From a virus: a stretch of DNA of 64,000 bases. A program made the position numbers and the translations under genes. The notes under the pieces are model-generated. The model was not told where the DNA came from. It was given only the letters and a program-made list of their open reading frames with translations, and did no database searches. Below, one piece after another: positions 4,758 to 64,000 of the stretch. The stretch covers positions 1 through 64,000 of IMG/VR virus record IMGVR_UViG_3300025162_000046; one strand, 5' to 3'. How positions within the stretch are numbered: the first letter of the stretch is position 1; each line of letters opens with the position of its first letter.

Positions 4758-6875
4758 ATGGCAGAGCAAGGCCTACCAAAAGTAAAGAAATCAGAAGGAG
4801 ACGAAACTGCCGATAATTGGCTCAAGGGCGAAGCTACTTGGCCGGTTTCTGAAATCGATCCTTCTGTTATAGATCCGGATGGTTTGTTTTTGCCAAAGGA
4901 CCCGAGAAGCATCGCGGAAGAACAACAAGATCGCGAACGCGGGTCTAAAGATTTATACCAGCAGAAGTTCAAACCGCCGTTCGGAGCAATCCAAAACGAC
5001 TGGGAGTCTAACATAGATCCCCGTGCTGATGAAAAAGATGCTAAAGGCCCCGTCTCTAAGCATGCAGCGGCTAATCGGGATCACGCAAAAGATGGCGAGC
5101 GCAATCAAGGGGCCAAGGCTGATATCACCACGGATTATATGAATAAGGAACCAAAAGAGAAGCTTTTTTCTGATGAAAAGAAACTCACGGAGATGTCTAT
5201 AGAAGAGCTTGAAAGACTCCTTGAGGCAGAGGATATTCCAGTTGAGGCGGATCTTCTCACAAATCTACCTCCTCTACCTGAAGCCCCAATTTCTAACTCG
5301 GATTACAATTCTGAAGAAGATGATGAAGAGACAGAAGCGCTTGATACTTTTGAGCATGCCAGCCATGACCCTGTGCCAAAAGAGGGCCCAATCGAGACCG
5401 TCCTCCATACCGGGGCTTATCACGATCAACTCCAAGAAGCCGGTGGCAAGGGCGCTTTTGGCCAATTTTTTCAAGAGAATCCAAATGCTTTCCATGAGGA
5501 TCCTAAGAACGCTTTTCATCGCTATAAAAAATGGGCCGACAAAAAAGGAATTGAACAAGGTTGGTGGCAAACATTCCAGCGCGCGCATGCTAAGGGAGCT
5601 GGTGGTTCTGCTACTGCTACAAAAGCGCCTCGACCTGGGAAAGCTCCTCCTCCTGATGCGGCCCCGCCAGCACCAAGGCCTTCTATCCAAAGCGCAGACT
5701 TAGATAGCGAGTTTGGTGATATGCTGGGGCCCCTCGCCAAGGCAACAGAAGAGCAACTTTCATCTGAACTTACGGTGGATGAGAAGTATTCTCAGCTTCT
5801 TTCTAAAGTATACGATTGGGCGACAACTCCCATGGAGCCTTTTGAGAAAGATCCATCTAAGAAAACCTCGGGTAGCAAACGCCATATAATGATCTGTGGT
5901 TCAGCAGGGGTGGGCAAAACATTTAGTGTGAAAGAAGCGGTTCTTCGAGCGGTAAATGAGGGGATCAAATTCAAAACTCAATATGTTCGCGGAACGATTG
6001 GCAAATCCATTTCTAATGTCATGGCATTCCTTTATCGATTCCGCCAAGGCTATCTCATCATATTCGATGACTGCGATGACTTTCTTGATTCAGATCTTGG
6101 CAATGTCATGAAAGGAGTATTTGAGCTTGATGCCCCGACAACAAACACCGGCTCTGTCGGCGTTCGTAAGATGGCAGCGAAGAATATGCTCGATCTCGAA
6201 GATCAGCCTCTTGAAGAAAGCGAAGCTATTCGTAAATTCCTTCGAGGCGAATTCCTGAACGAGGCCGCGGATGAAGACATGCCAATGGACGAGGTGGTGG
6301 ATGAGGCTGATGATGAAGAAGAATTTGAACGCGATGGAATGGATGATACTGGTAATGAAGATAAAGCCGAAGAACTTCTCCCCGCTCGTATCAATTTCCA
6401 ATCTCGCATCCTCTTCATTTCCAACAAAAAAAGAACTCAAATTGACGCTGCTGTTAGATCTCGTCTCAGCGTAATAGAGTTGTATCTCTCGGCACAAGAG
6501 ATTATTGGCCGCATCAGAGAGATTTTCGCGCAGCTTCTCAAAAATGAAGCTACAGTTCCCAAGGCTCGCCTCGAGTGGGCAAAAACTAACGCTCTTCGTT
6601 GGTTAGAACTTACAGTCAAGGCCAATGGGCAACCAATCGAATTCCTTGGGGGCCGTTCGCTTCAACTTCCTTTTGAGCCCGATGCTACGATTATTGAGTT
6701 CCGAACTTATATTGATCTCGTGAGTGGCTGGCTTTCTCAATCGAAAAAATATGAGCGTGAGCATAAAGGTATATCTCTTATGACACAGCCGAAACTTCCG
6801 ATGGATTTCCTTCGCGGGTTCTTGATGGGCGAGTTAGTTCCTATTCTTAAGGATGCAACGAAAGGTCGTCGATAA
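4758..6875 (+). CDS. AAA+/P-loop ATPase with long acidic N-terminal extension
   Basis: Walker A GSAGVGKT, Walker B LIIFDDCD, sensor ILFISN, AVRSR arginine finger. LTEM/LQEA/LEES/LNEA sites suggest head processing. Confidence 0.8.
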   Translation: MAEQGLPKVKKSEGDETADNWLKGEATWPVSEIDPSVIDPDGLFLPKDPRSIAEEQQDRERGSKDLYQQKFKPPFGAIQNDWESNIDPRADEKDAKGPVSKHAAANRDHAKDGERNQGAKADITTDYMNKEPKEKLFSDEKKLTEMSIEELERLLEAEDIPVEADLLTNLPPLPEAPISNSDYNSEEDDEETEALDTFEHASHDPVPKEGPIETVLHTGAYHDQLQEAGGKGAFGQFFQENPNAFHEDPKNAFHRYKKWADKKGIEQGWWQTFQRAHAKGAGGSATATKAPRPGKAPPPDAAPPAPRPSIQSADLDSEFGDMLGPLAKATEEQLSSELTVDEKYSQLLSKVYDWATTPMEPFEKDPSKKTSGSKRHIMICGSAGVGKTFSVKEAVLRAVNEGIKFKTQYVRGTIGKSISNVMAFLYRFRQGYLIIFDDCDDFLDSDLGNVMKGVFELDAPTTNTGSVGVRKMAAKNMLDLEDQPLEESEAIRKFLRGEFLNEAADEDMPMDEVVDEADDEEEFERDGMDDTGNEDKAEELLPARINFQSRILFISNKKRTQIDAAVRSRLSVIELYLSAQEIIGRIREIFAQLLKNEATVPKARLEWAKTNALRWLELTVKANGQPIEFLGGRSLQLPFEPDATIIEFRTYIDLVSGWLSQSKKYEREHKGISLMTQPKLPMDFLRGFLMGELVPILKDATKGRR

Positions 6876-6964
6876 TGAAAGATCTCGGTGATGTTGGTGA
6901 CTTCGAACGCCCTGGACTTTCGGTAGAAGCTTTTCTTAAGACAGCGGGGGTAGCTAATGCTTAA
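6875..6964 (+). CDS. 29-aa micro-ORF carrying the DLGDxGDF motif
   Basis: MKDLGDVGDFERPGLSVEAFLKTAGVANA*. ATG overlaps the upstream TAA (TAATG) and the stop overlaps the next gene. Aligns with the N-terminus of 15247..15771. Confidence 0.6.
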   Translation: MKDLGDVGDFERPGLSVEAFLKTAGVANA

Positions 6965-9900
6965 TAATTTTCAAGAAGGCGGCAATGCCATCAAAGACGC
7001 GGTGGATGTTCCTACCGCGAATGTCATGCCGACCATTGAAGCTTATATCATCGATGTTATCTCCAAACTTGATCATAAAGCTTGGGCAAAGATAGGCTCA
7101 ACGGGTAAAAAGAAAATAAAAAACGGGGATATAGATCTCGCATTCGACACGGATCTATCCTTAGAAGAGCTTTCCGCCGAATTAGATAAACTTGGTATTG
7201 AGCATGTAGTGTCTAAAGGGTTTCACGAACTCAATACAAAATTCCATCAGTATTCTCCCGAAGGAGAAGGGCTACCTGAATTCGCCCAAGTGGATTTGAT
7301 GGTAGGGAATCTCGATTGGCTTCAATTCGCTTATTTCACCGCGCCTGAGGCAGAAACTCATTACAAAGCAAAGCACCACACCGCGACCCTTTTTGGTCTT
7401 CTCAGAGGAACGGATATTGAAGGTGATGACGGTTCATTGACTGGATGGTCGATGGCGGTTGCTTACGGGGTATTCAATCGTAAGAGTATCAAGTATGTGA
7501 ATAAAAAAGGCAATGAAGATACTAAGGCAGAGAAGCTTAGTGGGTATTTTCCCAGCCCTAAAGTTTTCTGTGAGGTAATATCCGAGCGGAGTTTAGAACC
7601 TTGGAGTCCCGAGGATCTTATGGATACTTGTGAGGCTATCTGGGAAAAAATCAAGCAGCGATATTCTCCCGAACAACAACACACCATCTTCAAAACGATT
7701 ACGCGCTGGTGTGCAAACCAAGAAATTGAAGTGCCTGATCTGATGCCTTCTCTTCAAGAAGCGTTAGACCATATTATTACAAAAGAAAAACTCCATCAGA
7801 CTCACGCCGAAGATATGGTGTTGTATGGTGCAGAAGGTATCGAGTTTACTCTCGAAACCTTCGAATCCCTGTTTCATCAATTACAGACGGGGGAACCTAC
7901 TGTGGAAAGGAATTTAAGCGTTAAGGCGGATGGCGCGCCTGTAGTATTTGCTGGTAAGAGTTTCGCACATATCAAAGTCCCCTTCGTTGCAGCTAAGGCT
8001 ATCTTAGCTAAGAACGCCAAGTATGCGACTAACGAGGAAGAGCTTGTTGAGTTATTCGGCAATCGCCCTGGGCTGCTTCTTAAGATGCGAGCATTACTCA
8101 AATATGTCCCCGCAATTGGATTTCCCGAGGGAGAATGCTGGCGAGGAGATTTTTTATTCGCGCATGATGCCCTTCAACATCTTTCTATCGAAGGGAAAGA
8201 GTATGTCACGATGCATCCTAATAGCCTCTATTATGCGACTCAGGCTAATAGCGATTTAGCAGCGAGAGTTGAGGAGGCTGAGATCGGCGTTGTATGGCAT
8301 ACCCGATACAATGGTGAAGATGTTACCACAGCGGAGCCCATCTATTCAACAGATGTATCTGAACTCAATGACATTCCCCAAGTGTTCCAGACTGACCCTT
8401 ATCTTCGAAGTCTTGCCGGAGGAGTATTCACTCATGAAGAGGAATCGAAAATAGAACATCTATTGGACTTCGCTCATCAGGCAAAAGAAGAACTCCTTCA
8501 AAGCGATGATTATTCTACGATTCTCGCGGATGAAGACTTCATAAAGAATTTCTTTACGATTTTTGAAAATCACAAAGTGCGTTCAGGCGCAATAGGAATA
8601 GACCCTTTGACTTTTATTCCTGAACTAATGGAATGGTCAATTGGTCGCTTTGAAAAGAAAATTGCGAGTCTCAAGACAGATAAGGCTCGAGCGAGCTATG
8701 AAGAAAAAAAAGCTCAATTCCTTGAGCTCCTCGAGAGTCGCAAAGACACCTTACTCACGATGCTTGACCTTATGAAAGATATCGCTGAAGTCAAAGACAT
8801 GTTTGTTGATAAACTTAATCATTTCGGAATGTTTGAAACCTTTTATAAGACTATGTCGGATGGCGCGTTTCATCGAACGGGACAAGAAGGATTTGTCATC
8901 TCTGATACAATCGGCAACTCTTTGAAACTTATCAATCGCGCTGAGTTCAGCCATCTCAATTTCTCCCCAGATACGGAGAATGGATGGAAAGTAGAAGCGG
9001 AGACTTTCAATGAGGATGCTCCTAAGGACCCCATGAAAATTGAAGCATATCTCGCGAATCAGTTAGGTTTAGTAATCACAAAAAAAAGTTCAACTACTTG
9101 GTCCGCTCGAGACCCGGAGAACGAAAGAAAAGATAAAGCTATTCGCGCCCAGCGTATTCTCAAAGGAGAATTACAACGAGATGGGAAAGACCTTATCCTT
9201 CCGACCGGTATAAAAATAGAATTCAAAGATGAAAAAGCACTGAAACAAAATGCTAAGCACGAAGATAATGTTGAGACTCGATACTTCCGTATTCTTGAAG
9301 AAAACTTCAATAGAGCGTTGGGCGCTCGTAAATCAATTAATGTCCAGATCAAAGGGCAAAAAAAGACTATGCTTATTCAGGGAGTTGCGGGGGTTAAAGT
9401 TGTTGAGGGGACTCCTAAAGCAGATTTTGCTTTTGTGGATAAAGCGGGTTATGAGATTTACTATATTAGCCACAAGGCCGGCACAACGCCTGCTCACTAT
9501 CAGCAATACGGAGGTCTGAAGGATCTCAAGGACTCGCCGGCTTGGGATTTAATTGCCCCGGAGCTTGCCAAGAAAATTCGTAAAACAATTAGGGGAGTAG
9601 AGTTTGGCTCCGGGCTCGCGGTAAAAAAGAGTTTAAAAAATACGGGGCCAGAAGGCCAGATTAAAAAATTGGCCGCTTATGGACAGGATTATAATTCCAG
9701 TGCCGAGGGCCCTCAGAATGTATCCGCTATCATACAAGGAGAGATTTCCTTTACTCCCGCGGGTTCGGGGACTTACGATCTAAATGCCGCTCATGTCTAT
9801 CTTAATGGAGAAAATATGTCTGGCGACGCTGATCCTGTTTTCATTGTCAGATATGATAGTGAAAGAGATAGCCTGATAGGCGGAATCAAGTTTGTCAACG

Positions 9901-10004
9901 CACGGGCGATGATTGTTCCGGAGGCATACACTTCGGGCCGGAATGTCATAAATATTCTCGAAGCAAGCCAGTCAATTGAGCCCGGACTAATTAGGATGAG
10001 GTAA
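6957..10004 (+). CDS. Multidomain protein: Pol-beta-type nucleotidyltransferase-like, ligase-like KxDG (DUF6267-like) and PD-(D/E)XK-like domains
   Basis: EGGNA...GSTGKK...GDIDLAFD...QVDLM; HAED...SVKADGAPVVFAG...EGFV...KLINRAEFS; PKADF...YISHKAG...QQYGG. These motifs resemble conserved T4-like phage genes. Confidence 0.6.
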   Translation: MLNNFQEGGNAIKDAVDVPTANVMPTIEAYIIDVISKLDHKAWAKIGSTGKKKIKNGDIDLAFDTDLSLEELSAELDKLGIEHVVSKGFHELNTKFHQYSPEGEGLPEFAQVDLMVGNLDWLQFAYFTAPEAETHYKAKHHTATLFGLLRGTDIEGDDGSLTGWSMAVAYGVFNRKSIKYVNKKGNEDTKAEKLSGYFPSPKVFCEVISERSLEPWSPEDLMDTCEAIWEKIKQRYSPEQQHTIFKTITRWCANQEIEVPDLMPSLQEALDHIITKEKLHQTHAEDMVLYGAEGIEFTLETFESLFHQLQTGEPTVERNLSVKADGAPVVFAGKSFAHIKVPFVAAKAILAKNAKYATNEEELVELFGNRPGLLLKMRALLKYVPAIGFPEGECWRGDFLFAHDALQHLSIEGKEYVTMHPNSLYYATQANSDLAARVEEAEIGVVWHTRYNGEDVTTAEPIYSTDVSELNDIPQVFQTDPYLRSLAGGVFTHEEESKIEHLLDFAHQAKEELLQSDDYSTILADEDFIKNFFTIFENHKVRSGAIGIDPLTFIPELMEWSIGRFEKKIASLKTDKARASYEEKKAQFLELLESRKDTLLTMLDLMKDIAEVKDMFVDKLNHFGMFETFYKTMSDGAFHRTGQEGFVISDTIGNSLKLINRAEFSHLNFSPDTENGWKVEAETFNEDAPKDPMKIEAYLANQLGLVITKKSSTTWSARDPENERKDKAIRAQRILKGELQRDGKDLILPTGIKIEFKDEKALKQNAKHEDNVETRYFRILEENFNRALGARKSINVQIKGQKKTMLIQGVAGVKVVEGTPKADFAFVDKAGYEIYYISHKAGTTPAHYQQYGGLKDLKDSPAWDLIAPELAKKIRKTIRGVEFGSGLAVKKSLKNTGPEGQIKKLAAYGQDYNSSAEGPQNVSAIIQGEISFTPAGSGTYDLNAAHVYLNGENMSGDADPVFIVRYDSERDSLIGGIKFVNARAMIVPEAYTSGRNVINILEASQSIEPGLIRMR

Positions 10005-10006
10005 CT

Positions 10007-12082: not shown

Positions 12083-12245
12083 TGATTTTTAATCTCTCCG
12101 TTATTTGATCTACTGCAATATCCTTATTAAATAAACTATCCGGTTGTATCTCAACGATTATTCGCGGGTCTGTGAACAATAAAGAGTAGTCTATTTTCAT
12201 TTCATTCACAGCACTTTGTTTCACAAGAACACGCGCGATCTTCAT
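12069..12245 (-). CDS. Small hypothetical protein (58 aa)
   Basis: MKIARVLVKQSAVNEMKIDYSLLFTDPRII...INGKK* fills the gap between two minus-strand genes and overlaps the next start. Confidence 0.55.
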   Translation of the reverse strand: MKIARVLVKQSAVNEMKIDYSLLFTDPRIIVEIQPDSLFNKDIAVDQITERLKINGKK

Positions 12246-12254: not shown

Positions 12255-13469
12255 CTAACTATCATTCAGTTTAGCCAAGGTCGCATTATAAATTTCATTC
12301 CCTTGGATATCCGTATATAGAAGTTCAATTCCTGCGCCATGGTCAATATCCGTATCGAGTTCATTGAATCTGAGAAGCAAAGTGCCTGTGTCCGCCATAC
12401 GATTCAGCAGTATCCTTAATGAGTCACTGATGAGCGTAAAGGAAGCCTCAGTGACTTTTAGATTTCCGTCAAAGGTCTCGACAGCGAGCTCTTTCTCAAC
12501 CTCAGTGGAGGGGTGCTTATACGACAATATCATTCTTTGACCTAAGGTTGCGTCGTTTGTCCAGGTGAATGTGATGGGCTTCCATACCGAGGCCTCAAAG
12601 AGACCTGAGAAGAAGTCGATTGCTTCTGCCATGCGCGAAGGCTTTACCGCTATGGTTTGTACCTGAGCGCTATCCGGAGCGATGAGTTCCAAATCAGCTT
12701 GGCTCGGAATAGTGATGGTACAAGGATCGATAGCGAGTATAGCCCAGAAAGTTGGGTCAGGAGAAATCCAGCGAATCAAATTTTTATCCTTAGACAGGGT
12801 GAAGGTGCTGGCCTCCACTACGGCGAAGTCAATGAATCCTAAAATGAACTTATGAAGTAATCGGGATTCTCCGACAGGCAACACTGAGTTCCACACACTT
12901 GCCTTCATCCCTACCACTACGGTTCTATCCGCATACACGAGCTTATCTTGAAATAGGGCGATGGAGTTATTCTTATTGACGGTTCCCATATAAGTGGTGG
13001 CGATATGGGAAAAGTCGAGGAATGCTTGATTTGCCTCAAAAGATTCACCACCGGTGAATTGGGGCTCGCGATCAGTGTAAAAGGTAAGCAGGGAGGTGAT
13101 TTCAGGAGCATCTGCCTCATAAAAAACGACACTAAATGTTATCTTATCGTTAGTGGCGTCTGAGGTCATCAACATAGATGGCGGGGTAGTATTGATATTG
13201 AGTTTAAGGGGCATTGTTGAACCAATTTTCTTGGATGCACTGAGGAACTTGTTGATATCAATAGAAAAGTGTACAACATCGGGGCAGGCAGTTTCGAGGA
13301 TTAAGGCAAGAGAGACAACCGACTTATTCCCTTTGAAATAAAGAGTTAGCATATCGTCTTTGATGATCCCGTAAGTTTTTACAAATGAAGTCATCAAGTA
13401 TGAAAACATCTTGGAGTATCGAGAGAGTTTCTCGATGCTTGTCTGGGGTATTGCGATAGCGATCTTCAT
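12255..13469 (-). CDS. Putative DNA sliding clamp (beta-clamp-like)
   Basis: About 404 aa from ATG 13469 (RBS CAGGAG). Repeated alpha/beta pattern (FSIDINKFLSASKKI; IAVKPSRMAEAIDFF...FTLISDSLRILLNRM) resembles DnaN domains. Confidence 0.5.
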   Translation of the reverse strand: MKIAIAIPQTSIEKLSRYSKMFSYLMTSFVKTYGIIKDDMLTLYFKGNKSVVSLALILETACPDVVHFSIDINKFLSASKKIGSTMPLKLNINTTPPSMLMTSDATNDKITFSVVFYEADAPEITSLLTFYTDREPQFTGGESFEANQAFLDFSHIATTYMGTVNKNNSIALFQDKLVYADRTVVVGMKASVWNSVLPVGESRLLHKFILGFIDFAVVEASTFTLSKDKNLIRWISPDPTFWAILAIDPCTITIPSQADLELIAPDSAQVQTIAVKPSRMAEAIDFFSGLFEASVWKPITFTWTNDATLGQRMILSYKHPSTEVEKELAVETFDGNLKVTEASFTLISDSLRILLNRMADTGTLLLRFNELDTDIDHGAGIELLYTDIQGNEIYNATLAKLNDS

Positions 13470-13600
13470 ATTCTCTCCTGTGGGGGTGACATTCTTCTCA
13501 TAGTCATATACAATATACACAGCAATTCTAAAAATCTTCAATTAGTAATTTGATATCTGATGAGGCAATTAGATATAATTCTTAGACACAAGGAGGCTTC

Positions 13601-15246: not shown

Positions 15247-15771
15247 TTATAGTAAACGCTCATCCGTTGGTTCTTTTGGGGAGGGAGGAACCTGAGGGAA
15301 AGTGTCCCAAACCAGATCGTTTATCGGGTGAGGCATACACTGATCTACTCCCTCAACCGCGGGCCGTGGTAAAGAACCAAGATAAGGTAACAGGGCCGTA
15401 GCGAAAATATAGCAAGCGTCCGCCGTGGCTTCGAAGTAGGTATCTTCAAAGAATTCTTCTACGGACGCGTCCTTTTCTCTCATGTATTCTTCTAAATCTG
15501 AGGTGTCCACATTATCAGGGAGGTTTTCAGTTAACCCCTTGCGACATATGTTTACTATTCTATCTGTATATATGTTGCTTAGTCTCATAGCTTCTTTAAA
15601 TACGGCTTTATGGATTGCCTTGCCAGCGACCTCCCCCATTCTCGTAAATTCAGCTGAGAGTTTTTCCGCAATCTGTTCTCCGTAACGAGGGTTTGTTGTA
15701 AGGAACCTCTCGACATTCGTTGGAGGAGTATCAAAATCCCCCGTGTCACCCAGATCGCGATAATCACTCAT
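15247..15771 (-). CDS. Hypothetical protein with N-terminal DLGDxGDF motif
   Basis: 174-aa ORF in a minus-strand run; starts MSDYRDLGDTGDFDTPPTNVERFL. Confidence 0.75.
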   Translation of the reverse strand: MSDYRDLGDTGDFDTPPTNVERFLTTNPRYGEQIAEKLSAEFTRMGEVAGKAIHKAVFKEAMRLSNIYTDRIVNICRKGLTENLPDNVDTSDLEEYMREKDASVEEFFEDTYFEATADACYIFATALLPYLGSLPRPAVEGVDQCMPHPINDLVWDTFPQVPPSPKEPTDERLL

Positions 15772-16386: not shown

Positions 16387-17436
16387 TTAGTAGAAAATCA
16401 GAGTCAAAGAGGATTTCAATTGTCGGCCCCAACCACGATGGCGTAGGGCCTCTACTGTGGTGTGTAACTTTGTAGGCACATCACCTATATCCTTAATTCC
16501 CAAATTAGGAATTTCAAGTATCTCGAAAGGCTTACCTAAGTGTTCTTTCAGGTGGCCCATAGATTTCTTTCCCGCTTCATCATTATCCGGAATCATAACA
16601 ATACGACTGAACTGTTTGAGCAACCAAATCTGTCTTTCAGAGATGCCGGCGCCGAAAGTGGCGGTGCTATTAGCAAAGAAAGGATCTGTCCTAAGCACAG
16701 CGAGTTTGGTCAAGCCTTCAACTACATATAGAGGATCCTCCCGCTTGAGAATATCTACATCATAAATTGTTTGGACGGTTGAGTCTTTAGGATAGAGGAC
16801 TTTATGTGTTTGTTTTCCTGTAGTATCACGGCCTTCAATAGCAAGCAACTTACTACCTTCATAAATAGGAATGGTGAGTCTTTTGTTGAAGGTAGTTCCA
16901 TTAATATTGCCGTGATCCATAAACCCCATAGCCATCGATTTCGCTATTTCAAAGGGGATTCCACGACGACGGAGATAACGAATCGATTCCGGATGCTTTG
17001 CGGCAGGGACTATCTCACCTCTTACTTGAATATCGATATCTTTGTCAATGACGCTATAGTCCGGCGTCACATAATTAGAAGGATCGAATGAGAAGGATGT
17101 GAACTCATCATTCACTATGTCAAAATCTTTATAGAAAGATCTACTGGTAATCCTATAGTATAGAGAAGCGAGGGATCCTTGCGCTTGGCAACTAAAACAA
17201 TGATAAACGAACTTTTCGGGGGCGATGAACATGGAGGGGGTTTTATCAATATGAAAGGGGCACGCGACCTGCCACTCATCGGAGTTATCGAGATTGTGTG
17301 TTTTTAGTTTTAGGTTGAGCGCGCGAACAACCTGCTCAGCAAGTTGCCGCTTTCTGATAGGATCATTCATTGCTTGGCGTTGCTCATCCATCTTAGAACT
17401 CCTTGACGGCGGAGCAAAACGAAAGGCAGTTGGCAT
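16387..17436 (-). CDS. DNA primase (DnaG-like)
   Basis: Zinc finger CPFH...CFSC, YLRRRGI, RLTIPI, TOPRIM VVEG...PDNDEAG. Confidence 0.92.
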   Translation of the reverse strand: MPTAFRFAPPSRSSKMDEQRQAMNDPIRKRQLAEQVVRALNLKLKTHNLDNSDEWQVACPFHIDKTPSMFIAPEKFVYHCFSCQAQGSLASLYYRITSRSFYKDFDIVNDEFTSFSFDPSNYVTPDYSVIDKDIDIQVRGEIVPAAKHPESIRYLRRRGIPFEIAKSMAMGFMDHGNINGTTFNKRLTIPIYEGSKLLAIEGRDTTGKQTHKVLYPKDSTVQTIYDVDILKREDPLYVVEGLTKLAVLRTDPFFANSTATFGAGISERQIWLLKQFSRIVMIPDNDEAGKKSMGHLKEHLGKPFEILEIPNLGIKDIGDVPTKLHTTVEALRHRGWGRQLKSSLTLIFY

Positions 17437-18148: not shown

Positions 18149-20221
18149 ATGGCATTTGCGTTTGGGGGCCTAAATGTGGCCTCAACAAAGAAAAGCCTTG
18201 CGGCAGAACTGATTCAAGATATTGTTCAAATCGAACACACCTCCGATAAAGGCCCCTATATTCTTGTGCTGCTTGATGAGTTCTACTACCCCGACAAATT
18301 AAAGAAGATCTCTATCTTTCTTGAACGCAACGGAATACGGAATTATCGAGCGGTCAACGCGTTGAATTGTATCATTCCTAAAGAAGACCTTAAAGGAGAA
18401 CTTTCTCGATTCTATCGGATCAATCAATCCAAGTGGCGACAATACGCCGACGGCGCAAAAGGGGTTATCGCGGTTGGGGCCGCCCTCTATGCTATCAATC
18501 AAAGCGCGGACTTGATGACCTTTGCTTTTTATGATATTATGTTTAACAAGCCCTACTTCTGGTCCCCCGATGCGGGCACTTGGGTATTTCCTATTGATAC
18601 CTTCCAAGACATCTTCGCCCCTATTCAGCAACAGCACGGTGATAGCCATATGGAAAATCCAGGCCCTGTTAATACTTACAAAACACATTTTGCGGAGTAT
18701 CAGTTCAAGCAGATCACCTCTCTCCGCCTCCACCCCATAGTAGCCGAGAAACCCATTCTTATTAAGATAGAAAGCGTAGAAGCATTCAAAGAATTTGCCA
18801 AGCAGCACATGAATGAAGAAATACTAAGCACCGATCTTGAAACCTCAGGTCTTGATTTTATGAAATGTCGTATTGGGTGTATCACCTTTTCATTTGATGG
18901 AAAGACTGGTTATTTTGTCCCTTGGAAATTCGTAGACAAGCCTCTTCTCGATCGGATGTTCACCACTGCCAAAATAGTCGTCGGGGCCAATTTTAAATTC
19001 GATGTTAGATTCCTCTGGCACAATGGAATCCCGGCCGCTCGAGTTGATGAGGACACCGTTCAGATGGGGCATCTCATGAATGAGCAGCGCCTCAACGGCT
19101 TGAAGCCTTCTGCGTATTACTACACCCCATTTGGAGGGTATGATAGAGAACTTGATCGCTACCGAGAGAAAACCGGCATAGATGATTTCACTCTTATTCC
19201 TGAGCACATTCTATTTCCCTATGCTACGATGGATGCGATTGTCACCTATCTCGTATATGTGGCCCTATTGGAACAGATGCGCTATGTCGACAAGACAATG
19301 CCTAATGAGAAAGATCCTTCGTGGACAATAGAAAGATACTACCGAGAGATCATGATGCCTGCGGTCAACGCCTTCGCGGAAATAGAATATCGGGGAGTCT
19401 ATGTCAATCGCGAACTTCTCGCTCAATCACGACTCGCAATGCAAGTTGAGATTCAAGAGATTGAAAATGAACTCGCCGCGAAATGGAATGTGGGAGGGAA
19501 TTTTGATTTCAATAGCGCGAATCAGTTGGGCAAACTTTTTGAGCGCTTGGGCTTTGAAGAACTCGGCAGGGCAAAGAATGGTGATTACAAAACTTCGGAT
19601 GCTAGCCTTGAACGCTGGGCTAAAAGAGGCCATCCTGAGATTTCTCGGCTTCAAAGACTACGCACGCTCAATACTCTATTGAAAACCTTTATCAGCAAAG
19701 ATGAAGAGTCGGAGAAAGGGTGGGAGAGTTATGTCAGACAGCATGAAGATGGTAGTTGGAGAATGCATCCTACCTTCAATGTCATGCGCACTGAATCGGG
19801 CCGCTGTAAATCAGACTCCCCTAACATGCAGAATGTTCCGGCAGGGCATGGTGCTAACGGAGACTTGGCCTCCTTAGTAAAAAAATGTATAACTACTCCT
19901 GACCCCGAGGAATACTATCTCAGCACTCTGGATTACGCATCGCTTCAAATGCGTCTTGCTGCAATCGACACTAATTTAAACGACGGCGGCAGGGATAAAA
20001 ACCTTTACAACATCTATCTCGATCCTAAAATGGGTGGGGATATGCATAGTCGCACAGGCTTCGGCGTATTTGCAGAAGGCCGAGATTTCGATTTAGAAAT
20101 AATAGAAATTGAAGAAGACGGAAAACCCTCGAAGACCTTTTTCGGGGGGGAGTTCGTCAAGACTAAGAATAGAGGGGAGATACAAGCAAGAAACCTATCA
20201 CCTTCTGATGTTTTATTTTAA
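18149..20221 (+). CDS. polA: Family A DNA polymerase, N-terminal fragment (UDG-like domain, 3'-5' exonuclease, palm through motif A)
   Basis: Exo I DLETSG, Exo II NFKFD, Exo III YATMD; TESGR...PNMQNVP; motif A LDYASLQMR; DMHSRT. Motifs B and C are absent. Confidence 0.9.
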   Translation: MAFAFGGLNVASTKKSLAAELIQDIVQIEHTSDKGPYILVLLDEFYYPDKLKKISIFLERNGIRNYRAVNALNCIIPKEDLKGELSRFYRINQSKWRQYADGAKGVIAVGAALYAINQSADLMTFAFYDIMFNKPYFWSPDAGTWVFPIDTFQDIFAPIQQQHGDSHMENPGPVNTYKTHFAEYQFKQITSLRLHPIVAEKPILIKIESVEAFKEFAKQHMNEEILSTDLETSGLDFMKCRIGCITFSFDGKTGYFVPWKFVDKPLLDRMFTTAKIVVGANFKFDVRFLWHNGIPAARVDEDTVQMGHLMNEQRLNGLKPSAYYYTPFGGYDRELDRYREKTGIDDFTLIPEHILFPYATMDAIVTYLVYVALLEQMRYVDKTMPNEKDPSWTIERYYREIMMPAVNAFAEIEYRGVYVNRELLAQSRLAMQVEIQEIENELAAKWNVGGNFDFNSANQLGKLFERLGFEELGRAKNGDYKTSDASLERWAKRGHPEISRLQRLRTLNTLLKTFISKDEESEKGWESYVRQHEDGSWRMHPTFNVMRTESGRCKSDSPNMQNVPAGHGANGDLASLVKKCITTPDPEEYYLSTLDYASLQMRLAAIDTNLNDGGRDKNLYNIYLDPKMGGDMHSRTGFGVFAEGRDFDLEIIEIEEDGKPSKTFFGGEFVKTKNRGEIQARNLSPSDVLF

Positions 20222-20233: not shown

Positions 20234-20629
20234 ATGCCGGTGAATGGAGTTTACAAGATACTGATTGTTGACGATAGCGTATCTATCGTAACTCTAATAC
20301 AACAAATTTTTAGCCGAAGACCTCAATTCTCAACCATCGTCGCCTATGATGCAGAAACGGCTATTACCCTTATTGGCTTAGAAGATCCAGATGTTGTTCT
20401 GTTGGATTTAAGTCTTCCTCAGATAGACGGGATTAAGGCATGTCGCCAAATCAAAAAGGCGCACCCATTGTTACCAATTCTTGTTATCACAGGAGAACTA
20501 GGACGCTTTTCTAGTGAGCAGGCTCATGAGGCCGGCGCTGACGATTTTATTTCCAAGCCCTTTAATAACGAGCAACTCGTATCGCATGTCAAACATTATT
20601 TACATCTAACATCACTTAATGTAACTTAG
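20234..20629 (+). CDS. Single-domain response regulator (CheY-like receiver)
   Basis: ILIVDD, phospho-acceptor LLDLSLPQIDG, ITG, GADDFISKPF. Confidence 0.93.
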   Translation: MPVNGVYKILIVDDSVSIVTLIQQIFSRRPQFSTIVAYDAETAITLIGLEDPDVVLLDLSLPQIDGIKACRQIKKAHPLLPILVITGELGRFSSEQAHEAGADDFISKPFNNEQLVSHVKHYLHLTSLNVT

Positions 20630-25604: not shown

Positions 25605-26024
25605 ATGCGGGAATCTGAACAATTTGATGACCTCACTACCACAGATGAGGATATGCCTTCTCCTGAAACCACCTCAATGACTCTCGAAGATTACTTTGCC
25701 GGTGAGGATCCTGAGTTCAAACCCATTCTTCCCAAGGATGACGGCGTAGGCCAACTCCTACACGATAATATTGAAAATGATCTTGTGGAAGCGGATAGGC
25801 CTAGAATGGATGACAGGGAGAACACTTGCCCTCGTTGTGGAAGCGAAGAAATAGACTATGATGATGGCGCAGGCAACCCAAAATGTTATACGATAGAATC
25901 TCCTAAAAAATACCGCGGGGAACTTGTTGCGGAAGAGGATGTTCTTTTTGAGGAGAGCACCAAAAACACTGAGAACACGTATTCATTTTACGGAGTAGAT
26001 AGTTATTTATTGCCAAAAGGCTAA
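25605..26024 (+). CDS. Hypothetical acidic protein
   Basis: 139 aa; ACTAATTA at 25582; CPRC motif. Confidence 0.7.
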   Translation: MRESEQFDDLTTTDEDMPSPETTSMTLEDYFAGEDPEFKPILPKDDGVGQLLHDNIENDLVEADRPRMDDRENTCPRCGSEEIDYDDGAGNPKCYTIESPKKYRGELVAEEDVLFEESTKNTENTYSFYGVDSYLLPKG

Positions 26025-27029: not shown

Positions 27030-27983
27030 ATGAGATATAATTTCATCTTGATTGATACTCTAAATCTGCTTTGGAAACTACGCGAAAAGAATGAACAAGT
27101 CTCGCTATTATCGTCGAAGTATGTTTATCGAGGCCTTGCTGCTAAGTATCTCGAAACTATCAAGAGCCTCAGTGATAACTATCTCGTAGAGGACGGCACA
27201 TTTTTCCTTTTGTTCGACAATCCCACAAGTCGCTTAGACTTACAAAAGTCATTTTATTTTGCATCTCGCAAGCATATCTACCCGAAGTATAAAGAGCAAC
27301 GCGCGAAAGAATGTAAAGAGTTTTACAATACTCTCGATTTGATTCGCTATTATTATCTCACTAATACTTCGGAGTATGCTTGCATTCAAGTCCAAAACCT
27401 TGAAGCAGATGATTTAGTCAAACCTGTGCTTACTAATTACTGCGCGCCCGATTCACGAGTGCTAATGGTCACTAACGATTATGATTGGACGAGGTATCTA
27501 TCAGCGCAGGTAGATTGGATGCCTAATCTTGAAGCCGAGCCGGAAACAATAACAGTATTCACTGAAAAGATGGGGTTCATTCCCACCGAGAGTTCTGTAA
27601 TTATGTATAAGAGTTTATTCGGTGATCCGAGCGATAACATCCCCCAGATTATTGTTAAGAACAATAAAACTTACACAGAGTTTCTTGATTTCCTACGGGC
27701 AACACCCACCCTCAACCCTGAGACCTTGATTGATAGGGGGCACAATACAGCCACCGCTGTCGCATCCCCAATTTTAACAGCCATCAAGTTAAATGAACGC
27801 CAGTATCGAATCAATATCCAATTGACCTCAACGATCCCCGTCTCAGAAAAACATCTCAAAGCGGTTACTTGTCGGGGGCGAAATTCTTCCGTTATTACAG
27901 AGGCAGTGGAAGTTGCTCTGGGGATCAGAAAAGAAAAGAAGGAATTCGTATTCGGCCAACTGAAAAGTCCTAAAACTTCCTAG
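27030..27983 (+). CDS. 5'-3' exonuclease / T4 RNase H-like flap nuclease
   Basis: LID, FDN, YKEQR, EADD, TNDYD, GDPSDNIP motifs. Confidence 0.9.
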   Translation: MRYNFILIDTLNLLWKLREKNEQVSLLSSKYVYRGLAAKYLETIKSLSDNYLVEDGTFFLLFDNPTSRLDLQKSFYFASRKHIYPKYKEQRAKECKEFYNTLDLIRYYYLTNTSEYACIQVQNLEADDLVKPVLTNYCAPDSRVLMVTNDYDWTRYLSAQVDWMPNLEAEPETITVFTEKMGFIPTESSVIMYKSLFGDPSDNIPQIIVKNNKTYTEFLDFLRATPTLNPETLIDRGHNTATAVASPILTAIKLNERQYRINIQLTSTIPVSEKHLKAVTCRGRNSSVITEAVEVALGIRKEKKEFVFGQLKSPKTS

Positions 27984-56631: not shown

Positions 56632-56644
56632 TAAGGGAGAGATT

Positions 56645-58385: not shown

Positions 58386-58392
58386 TTATAAT

Positions 58393-58818: not shown

Positions 58819-58863
58819 CAATCTATCCGGATACTCCCTACTAATTAATTCAGGGGATTTATC

Positions 58864-59970
58864 ATGGATTTACAAACTCTTGCAAAAAATCTTTATGGTG
58901 AGGATTATTCTTTATGGCAACTCGGTTCGTTGAGGCGACAACTACAAAAAAAGAAAATAACCGAAGTTGATATTACTTGGAGAGAAGAAGAAAATGGTTT
59001 CGGCGCTTGGGATATGATTCATGGTATCCCTTTATCTTGTAATACTTATTGGCATAGCTATGCTTGCACTTCTTGTGGTAAAAAAATTATTGATATAGAT
59101 CGAAATCATAAACGCCGGGCTAATCCTACCCTTTGCGGGCATTGCAGCAAATCAAAAACTTTAACAGAAGTGAATCGAAATTCCAATAAAGTAAAAAACG
59201 CAGAGATTTTTGCTGACCCTCTTCTAGGCTCTATTCGGAAAGAAAAACTAAGAGAAAATAGGATTCGAATAAACCAAACTGTGATGGCAGATTTTATTCG
59301 AAACTTGTCGCCGGAGAGAAAAGAACAAATAGCCATTCAGAAGAAACAAACTTGGGGGGCTCGTCCAGTAGAGGAAAAAAAGGAAATCAATAAAACTCGC
59401 AATGGCTATCTTTATAAAAGTGAAAAGGAGATACAAGAACGAGTACAAAGAGGGGTAGAGACTAAGAAAAAAAACTTAGCTAAACTGTCCTCGGAAGAGA
59501 TCCGACAAAAAACCTTAGAGAGGGTGGCAAAAATGAAAGCTACCATTCGATCTAAACCTAAAGACCTGAGGTTTAATCACCCTGAGCGTAGATATGTAAA
59601 GGGGAAGCAAGGTGAGGTAGGGGGTGTTTATTTTCAATCATCTTACGAAGAAGCCGTATTACAGTTTTGTTGCATGAAAATGTATAAGATACAAAGAGGG
59701 CCGGCACTTGAATACTATAATCCAATAGGAAAAAGTATTTCTCTTTATTTTGTGGACTTTTTGATAAACGATACTCTTTTAGTAGAGATAAAAAGTAATT
59801 ATACTTGGGATCAAAATATAGAAATCAATAAGGCGAAAGAAAGATGCGCTCAGTCGTATGCACAAGAACAAGGGTTGACCTATCTGACGCTTATATTATC
59901 CAAGGAGGATATCAAGGATGTCAACAAGATTCTCGAAAATACGTTCAATAAAGAATTTAGAGAGAACTGA
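58864..59970 (+). CDS. Homing endonuclease, PD-(D/E)XK/TnsA-like C-terminal nuclease with N-terminal zinc finger
   Basis: CTSC...CGHC; FQSSYE...YFVDFLINDTLLVEIKS; located between split intein halves; ACTAATTA at 58840. Confidence 0.85.
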   Translation: MDLQTLAKNLYGEDYSLWQLGSLRRQLQKKKITEVDITWREEENGFGAWDMIHGIPLSCNTYWHSYACTSCGKKIIDIDRNHKRRANPTLCGHCSKSKTLTEVNRNSNKVKNAEIFADPLLGSIRKEKLRENRIRINQTVMADFIRNLSPERKEQIAIQKKQTWGARPVEEKKEINKTRNGYLYKSEKEIQERVQRGVETKKKNLAKLSSEEIRQKTLERVAKMKATIRSKPKDLRFNHPERRYVKGKQGEVGGVYFQSSYEEAVLQFCCMKMYKIQRGPALEYYNPIGKSISLYFVDFLINDTLLVEIKSNYTWDQNIEINKAKERCAQSYAQEQGLTYLTLILSKEDIKDVNKILENTFNKEFREN

Positions 59971-61987: not shown

Positions 61988-62028
61988 TTATATAGGATTA
62001 TTAGTCTCTCAAGGAGAAGAAGGTGCCT

Positions 62029-64000
62029 ATGAAACTCGAAGAAGGACGCAAGTCTAACATTCTGAAAACCTTGTCCCAACTGCATGCCTACCTGAAGCGT
62101 TATCAGGACCTTGATAAAACAGAAGCCCATTTTGAACAGCGCCTCGAAGATGCGGGCTGCACTGATATGTTTGCGGCAATCGACGATGTTCTCGATATTG
62201 TCGAAACAGGCAAGGCCGCAGATAAGGCTCGGCTGCTCAATAAAGTATATAAGCAATACTTCCCTAAAACCGCCAAAAAAGATCCTGCTTCTGATGAAGA
62301 ACTCGAAGCCGCAATAGGTGAAGAAGAAGAAGAAGAAGAGGCTGGCGAAGTGGAAGGCACTCCTCAAATGGCAACTTATGCTGATCTTGGTGGGCAAGGC
62401 GCTGAGGGAAAGACTTTGGGAGATATCCGCAAGTCCGATCAAGCATATATGAGCGGCGGCGATGATGAAGATTGGGGTGAGGAAGACGATGAATCGGACA
62501 TAGATGCTACTAACGCTCGTAAAAGAGAGTCTCGTATGTCTGATCTTGATCTTGCGCAACGAGAAGAGATGTATGGCCCTGGCGGCGATCCTGACGATGC
62601 CGATAGAAATATGACCTATAATGGTGGTGAGGGGATTGGCTTATCGGGGGAAGAATTAGACAATGAGTATTTCGGCACCGAGCCCGAGGAACCAATATTT
62701 GACCCGGATGAAGAAAACTTAGACGCGGATTGGATGAAGGAATCTGTTTTACGCGAGGCTTATGTAGAACCCGATGGATCGACAATGCCATTAGATGATT
62801 CAGAAGATCAGATTGATGATCAAGATTATGAAGAAGAAGAATCTCAATACTCTATTGAGGATCTTGAACCGGGTATGATTGTTAATTGTGGCGCTTATGG
62901 TGATGGAATTATTGTTTGCTCTATTCACGATGAGCATCGATTCTGGGGCACTGATGATATTGAAGATTACAAAAAGAATGGTCCAGATGCTTCCGGTTGG
63001 TATTTCGATGTTGGAGACATAGAGGATATTGTTGGCAATGCGAACGATGATGACGATGACGACGATTGGGAAGATCAGGCGGAGCGTCGAGAGATGGATT
63101 CTACTTTTGGTACCTTCAAAGATGGCCTTTCTGACCCTGACGAGAGCTCTGACTATTGGAAAGAACACGAGGATACTGAAATAGAAGAAACAATCAAAGC
63201 AGCAGAAAATCGCGCCGAACAACTTCGAGAAGGAGGCCCTATGCAAGGGCCCGCTCTTGGTTCTACTCCAAGACCGAAAGATCCTAAGGATAAAATTGAC
63301 TGGCCCGTAGAAATGTCGGATGAGGAAGAACACGAATATGATGATTATGAAGCAGAAATGAACGAGGGTAAGCAGCGCCGCCCTTTTGACGAAGGGTCCG
63401 ATACTGGGTGGGGTGATGCAACTCCTGAAACAGAGGAGTATGATGATCTCGGCGAGACGGACGACTTCGAAACCCCAGAGCGCTCTCTTGGCGGCACTCG
63501 TCACCCCGAAGGCATTATGGGGACTATGAATGATGAAGTCTTCGAATACATCGATGATATAAAATCAGTCGATCCCGAAATTTCTGATGAAGAAATTATC
63601 GATGAGATCATAAAAGAATTTTCGGGCTCCGAACATCGAATGCAACGCGACAAGGCTTCTGATATTCTCTCTGATTACGAAGCAGAAAATAACCCCACAA
63701 ATGAAGAAGCCACCTCAGGGCAAATCGAAGATGAGTATGCCGACTTAGCAATAGATGGCGTTCCCGACTCTGAGATTATCGAAAGACTTATTCATAAATA
63801 CAAACTCACCCGTCACGAACTTGAAATGATGCTCGGTGAGGAGAGAGAAGCGGGCTTTGATTCGTATGAGTCTAATGAAGATGAAGATATAGATGACACC
63901 GAGCAAGAATTTGAAGATGATAACGAACTCAATGAAAGCATTGATGACCTTGGTGATGTGGGGGATTTCCCCAGACCAAAAGCCCAAGATCTGGAATTTG
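62029..64000 (+). CDS. Very acidic probable internal head/core protein, 3' end outside window
   Basis: Manually translated open frame from ATG 62029 (MKLEEGRKSNIL...) to the edge. ACTAATTA at 61983, AAGGAG upstream. MKES/LREA/LREG/MNEG/LNES sites; two DLGxxxDF motifs. Confidence 0.8.
   Translation, partial: MKLEEGRKSNILKTLSQLHAYLKRYQDLDKTEAHFEQRLEDAGCTDMFAAIDDVLDIVETGKAADKARLLNKVYKQYFPKTAKKDPASDEELEAAIGEEEEEEEAGEVEGTPQMATYADLGGQGAEGKTLGDIRKSDQAYMSGGDDEDWGEEDDESDIDATNARKRESRMSDLDLAQREEMYGPGGDPDDADRNMTYNGGEGIGLSGEELDNEYFGTEPEEPIFDPDEENLDADWMKESVLREAYVEPDGSTMPLDDSEDQIDDQDYEEEESQYSIEDLEPGMIVNCGAYGDGIIVCSIHDEHRFWGTDDIEDYKKNGPDASGWYFDVGDIEDIVGNANDDDDDDDWEDQAERREMDSTFGTFKDGLSDPDESSDYWKEHEDTEIEETIKAAENRAEQLREGGPMQGPALGSTPRPKDPKDKIDWPVEMSDEEEHEYDDYEAEMNEGKQRRPFDEGSDTGWGDATPETEEYDDLGETDDFETPERSLGGTRHPEGIMGTMNDEVFEYIDDIKSVDPEISDEEIIDEIIKEFSGSEHRMQRDKASDILSDYEAENNPTNEEATSGQIEDEYADLAIDGVPDSEIIERLIHKYKLTRHELEMMLGEEREAGFDSYESNEDEDIDDTEQEFEDDNELNESIDDLGDVGDFPRPKAQDLEF

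What the first reader, a model, noticed from the sequence alone, without database searches (positions are those of the whole stretch)
6875..63975. A DLGD(V/T)GDFxxP peptide motif recurs in three unrelated ORFs, including a 29-aa micro-ORF
Seen: KDLGDVGDFERPGLSVEAFL (6875 micro-ORF), RDLGDTGDFDTPPTNVERFL (N-terminus of 15247..15771, opposite strand), and DDLGETDDFETP (about 63442) and DDLGDVGDFPRP (about 63943) in the acidic 62029 protein. In the latter, the last copy follows a putative LNE/S cleavage site. Codons differ between copies, so conservation is at the protein level. Inference: a short linear motif, such as a capsid-targeting or docking signal or a host-protein-binding peptide released by head proteolysis. 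The stand-alone peptide could act as a competitor or adaptor.
Basis: partly seen in the sequence, partly recalled or inferred. Interest (0 to 1): 0.7.

Follow-up and report, generated by a model that had tools for sequence, protein, structure and literature searches.

The report
Shared address tag on phage modules
A short acidic peptide (core G-D-V-G-D-F-x-x-P) is a real, protein-level tag that a group of uncultured freshwater giant phages places in front of many small, swappable protein modules, free-standing or strung into long chains, probably to dock them all to one common partner that is still unidentified.

Summary
The 74-kb virus record holds five copies, four of them in the window. Codons differ between copies, and residue shuffles give none.

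Relatives keep the tag at orthologous sites. A profile search of 1.84 billion proteins finds 111 copies in 40 protein clusters, with up to 11 copies per protein.

The tag is bipartite. The core is h-G-D-V-(G/S)-x-F-E-x-P. In 69% of internal copies an h-x-E-(S/G/A) element lies 5-11 residues upstream (background 11%). The tag sits in disordered linkers just before small modules. Tag-plus-module cassettes are gained, lost and swapped between orthologs, and each lineage uses its own variant (GDVGDF or GDVSxF).

The 29-aa micro-ORF is real DNA, identical in assemblies from three studies. It occupies the slot of a 116-128-aa tagged protein in relatives.

My best reading (0.35) is a "cut-and-dock" address tag for head-loaded cargo. 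The main rival (0.2) is a docking motif for the phage's own beta clamp, whose fold I confirmed.

The scan has not seen this tag on other DNA. It has noted junction-motif polyproteins in at least eight other phage genomes.

The parts
6875..6964 (+). 29-aa tag-only micro-ORF. Its ATG overlaps the stop of the upstream AAA ATPase gene (TAATG), and its last codons overlap the ATG of the next gene (6957).
   Evidence: The sequence is identical, with no indels, in contigs from runs of three studies. It is on record as a called 29-aa protein, P0081. It holds the same slot as the 116/128-aa tagged proteins of G003/G001.
6881..6913 (+). Tag copy 1 (D-L-G-D-V-G-D-F-E-R-P), residues 3-13 of the micro-ORF.
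4758..6875 (+). 705-aa protein with an acidic N-terminal half and a viral AAA ATPase domain. It is the first gene of the operon that holds the micro-ORF.
   Evidence: Weak AAA and clamp-loader hits. The Atlas places it in viral AAA families.
6957..10004 (+). 1015-aa nucleotidyltransferase / DUF6267 (ligase-like) protein directly downstream of the micro-ORF. It carries no tag itself.
   Evidence: Pfam DUF6267, E = 8e-57. Orthologs in G001/G003 start at the same residues.
15247..15771 (-). 174-aa protein with the tag at its N-terminus, co-oriented with the primase gene (16387..17436) and 1.7 kb from the beta-clamp gene.
   Evidence: Orthologs in G001, G003, L073 and P0079 keep a tag at the same place.
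15724..15756 (-). Tag copy 2 (D-L-G-D-T-G-D-F-D-T-P), residues 6-16.
62029..64000 (+). Acidic modular 'beads-on-a-string' protein. It runs off the window and ends at genome 64788 (919 aa from the Met at 62029).
   Evidence: AF2 shows short folded modules separated by long low-confidence segments. Orthologs gain, lose and swap tag-plus-module cassettes.
63445..63477 (+). Tag copy 3 (D-L-G-E-T-D-D-F-E-T-P). It is conserved in all five aligned orthologs and lies about 25 residues before a helical module.
63928..63939 (+). Upstream element L-N-E-S, of the h-x-E-(S/G/A) class, six residues before the core glycine of copy 4.
63946..63978 (+). Tag copy 4 (D-L-G-D-V-G-D-F-P-R-P). In one ortholog the same site is followed by a different module, and in another the tag and module are both absent.
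12255..13541 (-). Phage-encoded beta sliding clamp, with a probable start at 13469 (404 aa). It is a candidate partner of the tag; no binding is shown.
   Evidence: AF2 mean pLDDT 91. All top Foldseek hits are bacterial DnaN, E about 1e-15, TM 0.62-0.76. 38 homologous clusters were found.

Best explanation
The peptide is a portable, bipartite 'cut-and-dock' address tag.

The core, h-G-D-V-(G/S)-(D/E/x)-F-E-x-P, lies in a disordered acidic linker. I take it to be a docking peptide that binds one common, phage-encoded partner.

It always sits directly in front of a small cargo module, such as an SH3-like barrel, a helical bundle or a zinc ribbon. The cargo can be a free-standing small gene, in which case the tag is at the N-terminus. 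It can also be one bead in a long chain, in which case each junction carries the tag.

Internal copies usually have a second element, h-x-E-(S/G/A), 5-11 residues upstream. I read this as the cut site of a Glu-specific protease of the prohead-protease type. Cutting there would release each bead with the tag at its new N-terminus, which is just how the free-standing genes begin.

The most likely destination is the assembling head, so that many small accessory proteins travel with the DNA.

What is shown: the tag's reality, its anatomy, its conservation, the cassette behaviour and the lineage-specific variants. What is inferred: docking, cutting and head loading.
For: (1) Selection acts on the protein. 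There are five copies with different codons and none in shuffles.

(2) The tag is conserved at orthologous sites in syntenic relatives G001 and G003. It is also present in more distant contigs whose only detectable similarity to this genome is the tagged proteins.

(3) A profile of 28 copies finds 43 proteins at E <= 0.001 among 1.84 billion, three of them false. That gives 111 copies in 40 clusters, 1-11 per protein, with a spacing mode of 74-104 residues, about one small domain.

(4) The tag is bipartite. h-x-E-(S/G/A) precedes 64 of 93 internal copies, against 11% background. The spacer length varies, which suggests two separately read elements. Only 6 of 18 N-terminal copies have the upstream element.

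[quoted passage not shown] T4 targets internal proteins to the head through a 10-residue N-terminal peptide (PMC9026906).

(6) Cassettes behave as units. Orthologs of the acidic protein share a frame but carry different modules behind the same tag, or lack tag and module together. One module is a free-standing untagged ORF in Serratia phage BF and other giants.

(7) Both tags of the window's acidic protein fall in low-pLDDT segments just before folded modules.

(8) Each protein or genome uses one variant. Window genome: 5 of 5 with G or D at core position 4. G003: 4 of 4 with S. L135: all S. Within-protein concordance is 0.50 against 0.31 in shuffles (maximum 0.476 of 2000). This fits co-evolution with a partner that differs between lineages.

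(9) The motif is essentially absent from 185,579 bacterial and archaeal species genomes. The one clear hit, in a 1.8-kb contig of an uncultured bin, resembles this phage.
Against: - No cleavage, binding or virion datum exists.
- No prohead protease (Peptidase_S77), capsid or portal gene was found in the four fragments. These are only 15-37% complete, so the absence is uninformative.
- Tagged genes lie among primase, ligase, nucleotidase, SbcCD, helicase-loader and clamp genes in two different region types, not next to head genes.
- The tag would stay on the mature product, whereas the T4 targeting peptide is removed.
- 31% of internal copies lack the upstream element.
- The proteins are very acidic, which is unusual for proteins packed with DNA.
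- The ACTAATT(A/G) promoter-like motif precedes tagged, replication and tail genes alike, so timing gives no help.
Confidence: 0.35

Rival explanations
1. The tag is a sliding-clamp (replisome hub) docking motif. It tethers diverse small proteins to the phage's own beta clamp, the way T4 gp43, gp33, gp55 and ligase share one short acidic-hydrophobic clamp-binding peptide.
For: - The phage encodes a confirmed beta-clamp fold 1.7 kb from the tagged 174-aa gene. The arrangement is syntenic in G001 and G003.
- In T4 the clamp-binding peptides of unrelated proteins are highly similar, hydrophobic and acidic, interchangeable, and functional when internal (PMC2988020; PMC7892883).
- The tag is acidic with conserved L/F, V and F.
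- Tagged genes sit in replication and nucleotide-metabolism operons in two region types.
- No other recurrent short motif, and no convincing terminal QLxLF-type motif, exists in the fragment's proteome. The clamp therefore has no other visible client motif.
Against: - Up to 11 copies per chain, plus the upstream h-x-E-(S/G/A) element, have no role in this model.
- The polymerase half, the 5'-3' exonuclease, the ligase-like protein and the sigma-like proteins lack the tag.
- G002 keeps the clamp (51% identity) but shows no tag in 58 kb.
- No clamp gene was detected on the other tag-bearing contigs, which are fragments.
- The tag does not match the bacterial QL[SD]LF consensus.
Confidence: 0.2
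2. The tag docks to some other partner in the infected cell, and the head is not involved. The partner could be a host protein, or a phage cytoplasmic protease that processes early polyproteins or times their degradation.
For: The SLiM anatomy, the early/replication gene neighbourhoods, the acidic small modules typical of host-takeover genes, and the lineage-specific variants all fit.
Against: No candidate partner or protease was identified. The motif is not used by bacterial proteomes, so it is not mimicry of a widespread host motif. The two variant classes each occur in both region types, which says little either way.
Confidence: 0.2
3. The motif is a passive structural linker or module-boundary spacer with no specific partner. 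It would be kept because it separates domains, or because it helps cassettes recombine.
For: It lies in disordered linkers, and cassettes are exchanged at it.
Against: - A passive linker would not keep nine near-invariant positions across lineages that share nothing else.
- It would not sit at the extreme N-terminus of free-standing proteins, nor survive alone as a micro-ORF.
- DNA identity between copies is only 19-24 of 33 bases, too low to guide homologous recombination.
Confidence: 0.08
4. The motif acts at the ribosome, as a 2A-like skipping signal or a translation-arrest peptide that separates modules during translation.
For: It shares G-D-V followed by a conserved proline with the eukaryotic-virus 2A motif, and it sits at module junctions. 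This resemblance rests on my own knowledge of the 2A consensus.
Against: The defining N-P-G-P end is absent. 2A skipping is not known on bacterial ribosomes. Copies at residues 3-13 of free-standing proteins would make no sense. A second proline follows in only 13 of 93 copies.
Confidence: 0.02

Closest known systems
T4 capsid targeting sequence and gp21 processing of internal proteins, and the analogous processing in phiKZ, 201phi2-1 and SPN3US (PMC9026906)
   Same: Both use a short N-terminal peptide shared by otherwise unrelated small proteins. Both are transferable to any cargo. Both have a nearby cut site after Glu behind a hydrophobic residue, and the cargo genes are scattered outside the head gene cluster.
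   Different: Here the conserved tag lies downstream of the putative cut site, so it would stay on the product. It also punctuates long chains, up to 11 times. No protease, cleavage or virion presence is shown, and the sequences are unrelated.
T4 sliding-clamp-binding motif shared by gp43, gp33, gp55 and DNA ligase (PMC2988020, PMC7892883)
   Same: Both are one short acidic-hydrophobic peptide on several unrelated proteins of one phage. Both are modular and position-tolerant. This phage encodes its own clamp beside tagged genes.
   Different: The T4 motif is C-terminal and present once per protein. Here the tag is N-terminal or internal and can be highly repeated. The known clamp clients in the fragment lack it, the clamp is of the bacterial beta type, and binding is untested.
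Polyvalent proteins of phages and conjugative elements (Iyer et al. 2017, PMC5512222)
   Same: Both are large phage proteins made of many small, rapidly swapped modules, with a proposed release of the modules by proteolysis.
   Different: None of the known polyvalent-protein domains, and no Pfam family at all, was found in 35 tagged proteins. That paper describes no conserved junction peptide (the word 'linker' has 0 occurrences). Here the same peptide also heads free-standing genes, and no portal, terminase or head gene was identified among the neighbours examined on these fragments.
Encapsulin cargo-loading peptides (from my own knowledge, not checked here)
   Same: Both are short Gly/hydrophobic peptides at a terminus of unrelated cargo proteins. 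The encapsulin peptides bind the inner face of an HK97-fold shell.
   Different: The sequences differ, and the encapsulin peptides are mostly C-terminal and not repeated in chains. No shell protein is available here to test.

Membership tests
T4-type capsid-targeted, prohead-protease-processed proteins | Cut site after Glu behind a short motif (L/I-x-E in T4), close to the targeting peptide | tested here: inconclusive
   h-x-E-(S/G/A) lies 5-11 residues upstream in 64 of 93 internal copies, against 11% background. The pattern is compatible, but no cleavage was observed.
T4-type capsid-targeted, prohead-protease-processed proteins | A prohead maturation protease is encoded by the phage | tested here: inconclusive
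   No Peptidase_S77 match at E <= 10 in G000-G003. These records are only 15-37% complete.
T4-type capsid-targeted, prohead-protease-processed proteins | The protein is present in the virion and the targeting peptide is removed | not testable with these tools
   The phage is uncultured and no proteome is available. Here the tag would lie downstream of the putative cut.
Sliding-clamp-binding motifs | A cognate clamp is present | tested here: met
   The product of 12258-13469(-) folds as a beta clamp: pLDDT 91, Foldseek DnaN hits at E about 1e-15.
Sliding-clamp-binding motifs | The motif is carried by the polymerase and other canonical clamp clients | tested here: not met
   The PolA N-half, the 5'-3' exonuclease, the ligase-like protein and the sigma-like proteins have no copy. 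The PolA C-half is not in the fragments.
Sliding-clamp-binding motifs | The peptide binds the hydrophobic cleft of the clamp | not testable with these tools
Sliding-clamp-binding motifs | Match to the bacterial consensus QL[SD]LF / QLxLxL | tested here: not met
   The tag consensus is h-G-D-V-(G/S)-x-F-E-x-P.
Polyvalent proteins (Iyer et al. 2017) | 2-15 distinct domains in one phage polypeptide | tested here: met
   1-11 tag-delimited modules per protein. AF2 shows beads on a string.
Polyvalent proteins (Iyer et al. 2017) | Presence of the family's characteristic effector or peptidase domains | tested here: not met
   No credible Pfam family in 35 tagged proteins. There were three single-member matches at E 0.003-0.009, and only three small PHROGs of unknown function.
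Polyvalent proteins (Iyer et al. 2017) | Genomic link to head, portal or terminase genes, implying packaging | tested here: not met
   The neighbours are primase, ligase, nucleotidase, SbcCD, helicase loader and clamp. A tail-fibre-like gene lies divergently next to one polyprotein.
2A-like ribosome-skipping peptides | C-terminal N-P-G-P | tested here: not met
   The core ends F-E-x-P. No N-P-G-P occurs in any of the 111 copies listed.

The most novel reading that the evidence does not exclude
These giant freshwater phages run a universal 'address code'. One ten-residue peptide, kept in step with a single phage-encoded receptor, lets any small protein be plugged in. The protein can be a separate gene or a bead on a protease-cut string. 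All of them go to the same place, either the head interior or the phage's own sliding clamp. Tag-only micro-ORFs, seen three times independently (29 aa here, 20 aa in L045, 46 aa in P0071), would act as competitors that tune occupancy of the receptor.
Probability: 0.15. Interest if true: 0.8.

Novelty: new variant of a known kind. Interest (0 to 1): 0.6.

Why it matters
If the tag is an address label, it defines by sequence alone a set of more than 100 unannotated small phage modules that share one destination. It also gives a handle, a ten-residue peptide, for finding that destination by pull-down.

It would show how giant phages manage large repertoires of accessory proteins: as interchangeable tagged cassettes, single or concatenated.

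A short, transferable targeting peptide with lineage-specific variants could also serve as a tool for loading or tethering foreign proteins, as the T4 targeting peptide has (PMC9026906).

If instead it binds the phage beta clamp, it would be a new clamp-binding motif class, and would imply a clamp 'toolbelt' far more crowded than in any known system.

Tried and rejected
- Complex prediction (clamp dimer plus the tagged N-terminus of the 174-aa protein) was not available. No binding test could be run.
Contigs of the 38 clamp homologs could not be fetched.
I stopped that step and rebuilt the position matrix from the stored files with a regex.

Searches that found nothing:
- No near relative among 50,697 phage records.
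- Single-protein scans of viral contigs found nothing.
- A literature search for the peptide string found nothing.
- No Pfam or PHROG family for the 174-aa, 91-aa or acidic proteins.
- No PDB sequence relatives for the clamp, the 463-aa protein or the ATPase.
- My guess that the 463-aa protein after the 91-aa ORF is a gp32-like SSB got no support and is dropped.
- BLASTP finds no alignment between the 29-aa micro-ORF and the 116-aa protein of G003. Its status as a remnant rests on synteny, orientation and the shared N-terminal tag, not on statistics.
- The small tagged protein has no further homologs in the word-indexed search.
- More distant homologs of the ligase-like gene (L126-L131) carry no tag.
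- G002 shows no repeated variant motif.
- No RNA holder is listed for the stretch, so nothing can be said on expression.

Ideas considered and rejected:
- DNA-level repeat or promoter element: codons differ.
- Sequencing or assembly frameshift creating the micro-ORF: identical sequence in three studies.
- Programmed +1 frameshift fusing the micro-ORF to the 1015-aa gene: there is no slippery site, and the orthologs' N-termini match the annotated start.
- Calcium-binding loop, or a mobile loop binding the phage's GroEL-like chaperonin: the residue pattern does not fit, and G002 has the chaperonin but no tag.
- Three profile hits (P0073, P0074, P0080) are unrelated repeat proteins.

Full report
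**Observation.** The window is part of a 73,815-base IMG/VR virus record that CheckV rates 37% complete, which suggests a phage of roughly 200 kb.

A fifth lies 818 bases beyond the window end, near the N-terminus of a 91-aa ORF that follows the acidic protein.

Nothing else in the six frames resembles the motif. A position matrix built from the copies gives 36-42 bits for the real ones, and no other site in the called ORFs reaches 7 bits. Within-protein shuffles never produce the strict motif. They produce a relaxed core 0.023 times per proteome, against four observed.

Copies agree in 6-10 of 11 residues but in only 19-24 of 33 bases, with many synonymous differences. Selection therefore acts on the peptide, not on a DNA element.

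**The micro-ORF.** Its ATG overlaps the stop of the upstream AAA ATPase gene. Its end overlaps the ATG of the 1015-aa nucleotidyltransferase / DUF6267 gene.

Contigs from runs of three studies of lake and freshwater metagenomes carry this stretch with no difference and no indel. It is not an assembly frameshift.

In two syntenic relatives the same slot holds a protein of 128 aa (G001) and 116 aa (G003). Each has a tag at its N-terminus and a C-terminal domain shared between the two (33% identity, E = 4e-18). G001 and G003 share 30-79% identical proteins with this genome in the same gene order.

The ligase-like orthologs start at the same residues as in the window. The window's micro-ORF therefore looks like what is left of that gene after loss of its cargo domain. 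BLASTP cannot confirm this on 29 residues.

Tag-only ORFs recur. There is a 20-aa one with its own Shine-Dalgarno sequence and the phage's ACTAATTA motif on contig L045. There is also a 46-aa truncated version of the 91-aa protein, P0071.

**Relatives.** Back-translating the motif and scanning public contigs recovered low-GC phage contigs with several copies each: L005/L073, L020, L029, L045, L046 and L113. It also recovered single chance matches in wrong frames of GC-rich DNA.

The true relatives share almost nothing else with this genome by BLAST. The exceptions are homologs of the 174-aa and 91-aa proteins.

In G001 and G003 the orthologs of the 174-aa protein, the micro-ORF slot and the acidic protein all carry the variant G-D-V-S-x-F-x-x-P. 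The more distant G002 keeps the neighbourhood but has no recognisable tag.

**The family at large.** A profile of 28 copies searched against 1.84 billion representative proteins gave 43 hits at E <= 0.001. Three are unrelated repeat proteins.

The other 40 hold 111 copies, 1-11 per protein, most often 74-104 residues apart. Ninety-three copies are internal and 18 lie within 20 residues of the N-terminus. One is at a C-terminus (P0048, also seen in L113).

The core is h-G-D-V-(G/S)-(D/E)-F-E-x-P, preceded by two or three acidic residues.

Internal copies usually have a second element, h-x-E-(S/G/A), 5-11 residues upstream. It is present in 64 of 93 copies, against 11% at random positions in the same proteins. 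Only 6 of 18 N-terminal copies have it. The variable spacer suggests that the two elements are read separately.

None of 35 tagged proteins has a credible Pfam family. One module matches PHROG 12201. In Serratia phage BF and other giant phages that module is a free-standing, untagged 109-aa ORF.

**Cassettes.** Five orthologs of the window's acidic protein share a frame. Behind the same tag they carry different modules, or they lack tag and module together, or they have extra tag-plus-module units at either end.

The 139-aa protein at 25605..26024 shares both ends with two 284-aa proteins that hold two intact tags. Its own middle has a decayed tag before a zinc ribbon.

AF2 on the acidic protein shows short folded modules separated by long low-confidence segments. 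The overall model is poor, with mean pLDDT 48. Both tags lie in such segments, shortly before the next module.

**Lineage-specific variants.** Copies within one protein or genome agree in the residue at core position 4 more than chance allows. Concordance is 0.50 against 0.31 in shuffles, with a maximum of 0.476 in 2000 shuffles.
- The window genome uses G or D in all five copies.
- G003 uses S in all four, and G001 uses S in both of its copies.
- L135 uses S in its array of small tagged genes.
- L005, which is syntenic with L135, uses mostly G.

Because codons differ, this looks like co-adaptation to a partner that differs between lineages, rather than gene conversion. I did not test gene conversion outside the window genome.

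**Context.** Tagged genes sit among replication and nucleotide-metabolism genes.

In the window the neighbours are:
- primase and a split family-A polymerase;
- a beta clamp;
- SbcCD;
- a DnaC-like loader and a DnaB-like helicase.

In L005 and L135 the order is polyprotein, primase-like gene, then an array of small tagged genes. ATP-dependent ligase (identified in L005), nucleotidase and HD-domain genes lie further along.

The clamp-like gene is a true beta-clamp fold. An ACTAATT(A/G) motif 10-55 bases upstream of many genes precedes tagged, replication and tail genes alike, so it does not time them.

No prohead protease, capsid or portal gene is recognisable in the fragments. No other recurrent short motif, and no convincing terminal QLxLF-type motif, exists in the proteome.

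**Interpretation.** The firm part, which I hold at about 0.85, is this. The peptide is a short linear motif under strong protein-level selection. It marks the N-terminal boundary of small, interchangeable modules in a clade of uncultured freshwater giant phages. It varies in step within a lineage, which points to one common binding partner.

The identity of the partner is open. I favour a cut-and-dock reading at 0.35. In it the upstream h-x-E-(S/G/A) is the site of a Glu-specific maturation protease, as in T4 and the phiKZ-like phages (PMC9026906). The core is the docking peptide that brings each module into the head. This is the only reading that explains the second element, the many copies per chain, and the likeness between free-standing N-termini and the N-termini that cutting would create.

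Against it stand the replication neighbourhoods, the acidity of the proteins, the lack of any protease or virion evidence, and the fact that the tag would be retained.

The main rival, at 0.2, is docking to the phage's own beta clamp. T4 offers a close precedent: one acidic-hydrophobic peptide shared and exchangeable among polymerase, ligase, gp33 and gp55 (PMC2988020, PMC7892883). This fits the gene context and the absence of any other client motif. It does not fit the repeats, the upstream element, the tag-less canonical clients or G002.

A cytoplasmic partner or protease (0.2), a passive linker (0.08) and a ribosome-level signal (0.02) follow.

**Comparison with what is known.** The architecture resembles the polyvalent proteins of Iyer et al. 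(PMC5512222). However, none of their domains is present, that paper describes no junction peptide, and the head-gene link is missing.

Earlier notes of this scan describe junction-motif polyproteins in at least eight other phage genomes, each with a different peptide. This particular tag was not seen before.

Notes on this same genome had already flagged the tag, the clamp-like gene and the ACTAATT motif. I checked the clamp fold and the motif distribution myself.

**Limits.**
- All genomes are fragments.
- Nothing is known about expression.

Noticed in passing
window 12255-13541 (-): A phage-encoded beta sliding clamp with no Pfam or PHROG hit. AF2 gives pLDDT 91 and all top Foldseek hits are DnaN. 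It has 38 homologous clusters in metagenomes, some on contigs of 274-292 kb.
   Followed up: partly
window 25605-26024 (+), decayed tag about 25767-25802: This 139-aa acidic protein shares its first ~50 and last ~50 residues with two 284-aa proteins (P0050, P0057) that carry two intact tags. Here the middle is replaced by a degenerate tag-like stretch followed by a zinc ribbon. It is an example of cassette turnover and tag decay.
   Followed up: partly
window-wide, e.g. 4726, 9986, 13546(-), 35068, 61983: ACTAATT(A/G) lies 10-55 bases upstream of about 25 genes of all functional classes (replication, tail, tagged genes). It also precedes the tag-only ORF on contig L045. It looks like a general phage promoter motif.
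   Followed up: partly
window 18149-20221 (+), and G001-G003: The family-A polymerase gene encodes only the exonuclease domain and the first half of the polymerase domain. This holds in all four related fragments, so the second half must lie elsewhere in the genome.
   Followed up: partly
window 6957-10004 (+): A 1015-aa protein combines an N-terminal nucleotidyltransferase-like region, DUF6267 (with a K-x-D-G ligase-type motif visible in the sequence) and a third domain. Distant homologs of the DUF6267 part occur in T4-like cyanophages, often next to a cytidylyltransferase gene.
   Followed up: partly
L045:1129-1188 (-) and downstream: A 20-aa tag-only ORF with its own ribosome-binding site lies 17 bases upstream of an ORF that reads like the ATP-binding domain of a histidine kinase. 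The window genome itself encodes a response-regulator receiver protein (20234-20629).
   Followed up: no
L135:13761-15043 (+): An array of four adjacent small paralogous genes (102-115 aa) lies directly after a primase-like gene. Each begins Met-Ser-Asp followed by the lineage's tag variant, though the first one is degenerate.
   Followed up: partly
P0074, P0080 (profile hits, not phage): Unrelated surface-protein repeats of about 45-50 residues contain S-G-L-G-D-V-G-x-Y-S-x-P and score as false positives of the tag profile.
   Followed up: no
window 27030-27983 (+), residues 23-27: The 5'-3' exonuclease has a Q-V-S-L-L pentapeptide near its N-terminus that resembles bacterial clamp-binding motifs. 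It may be buried in the fold.
   Followed up: no
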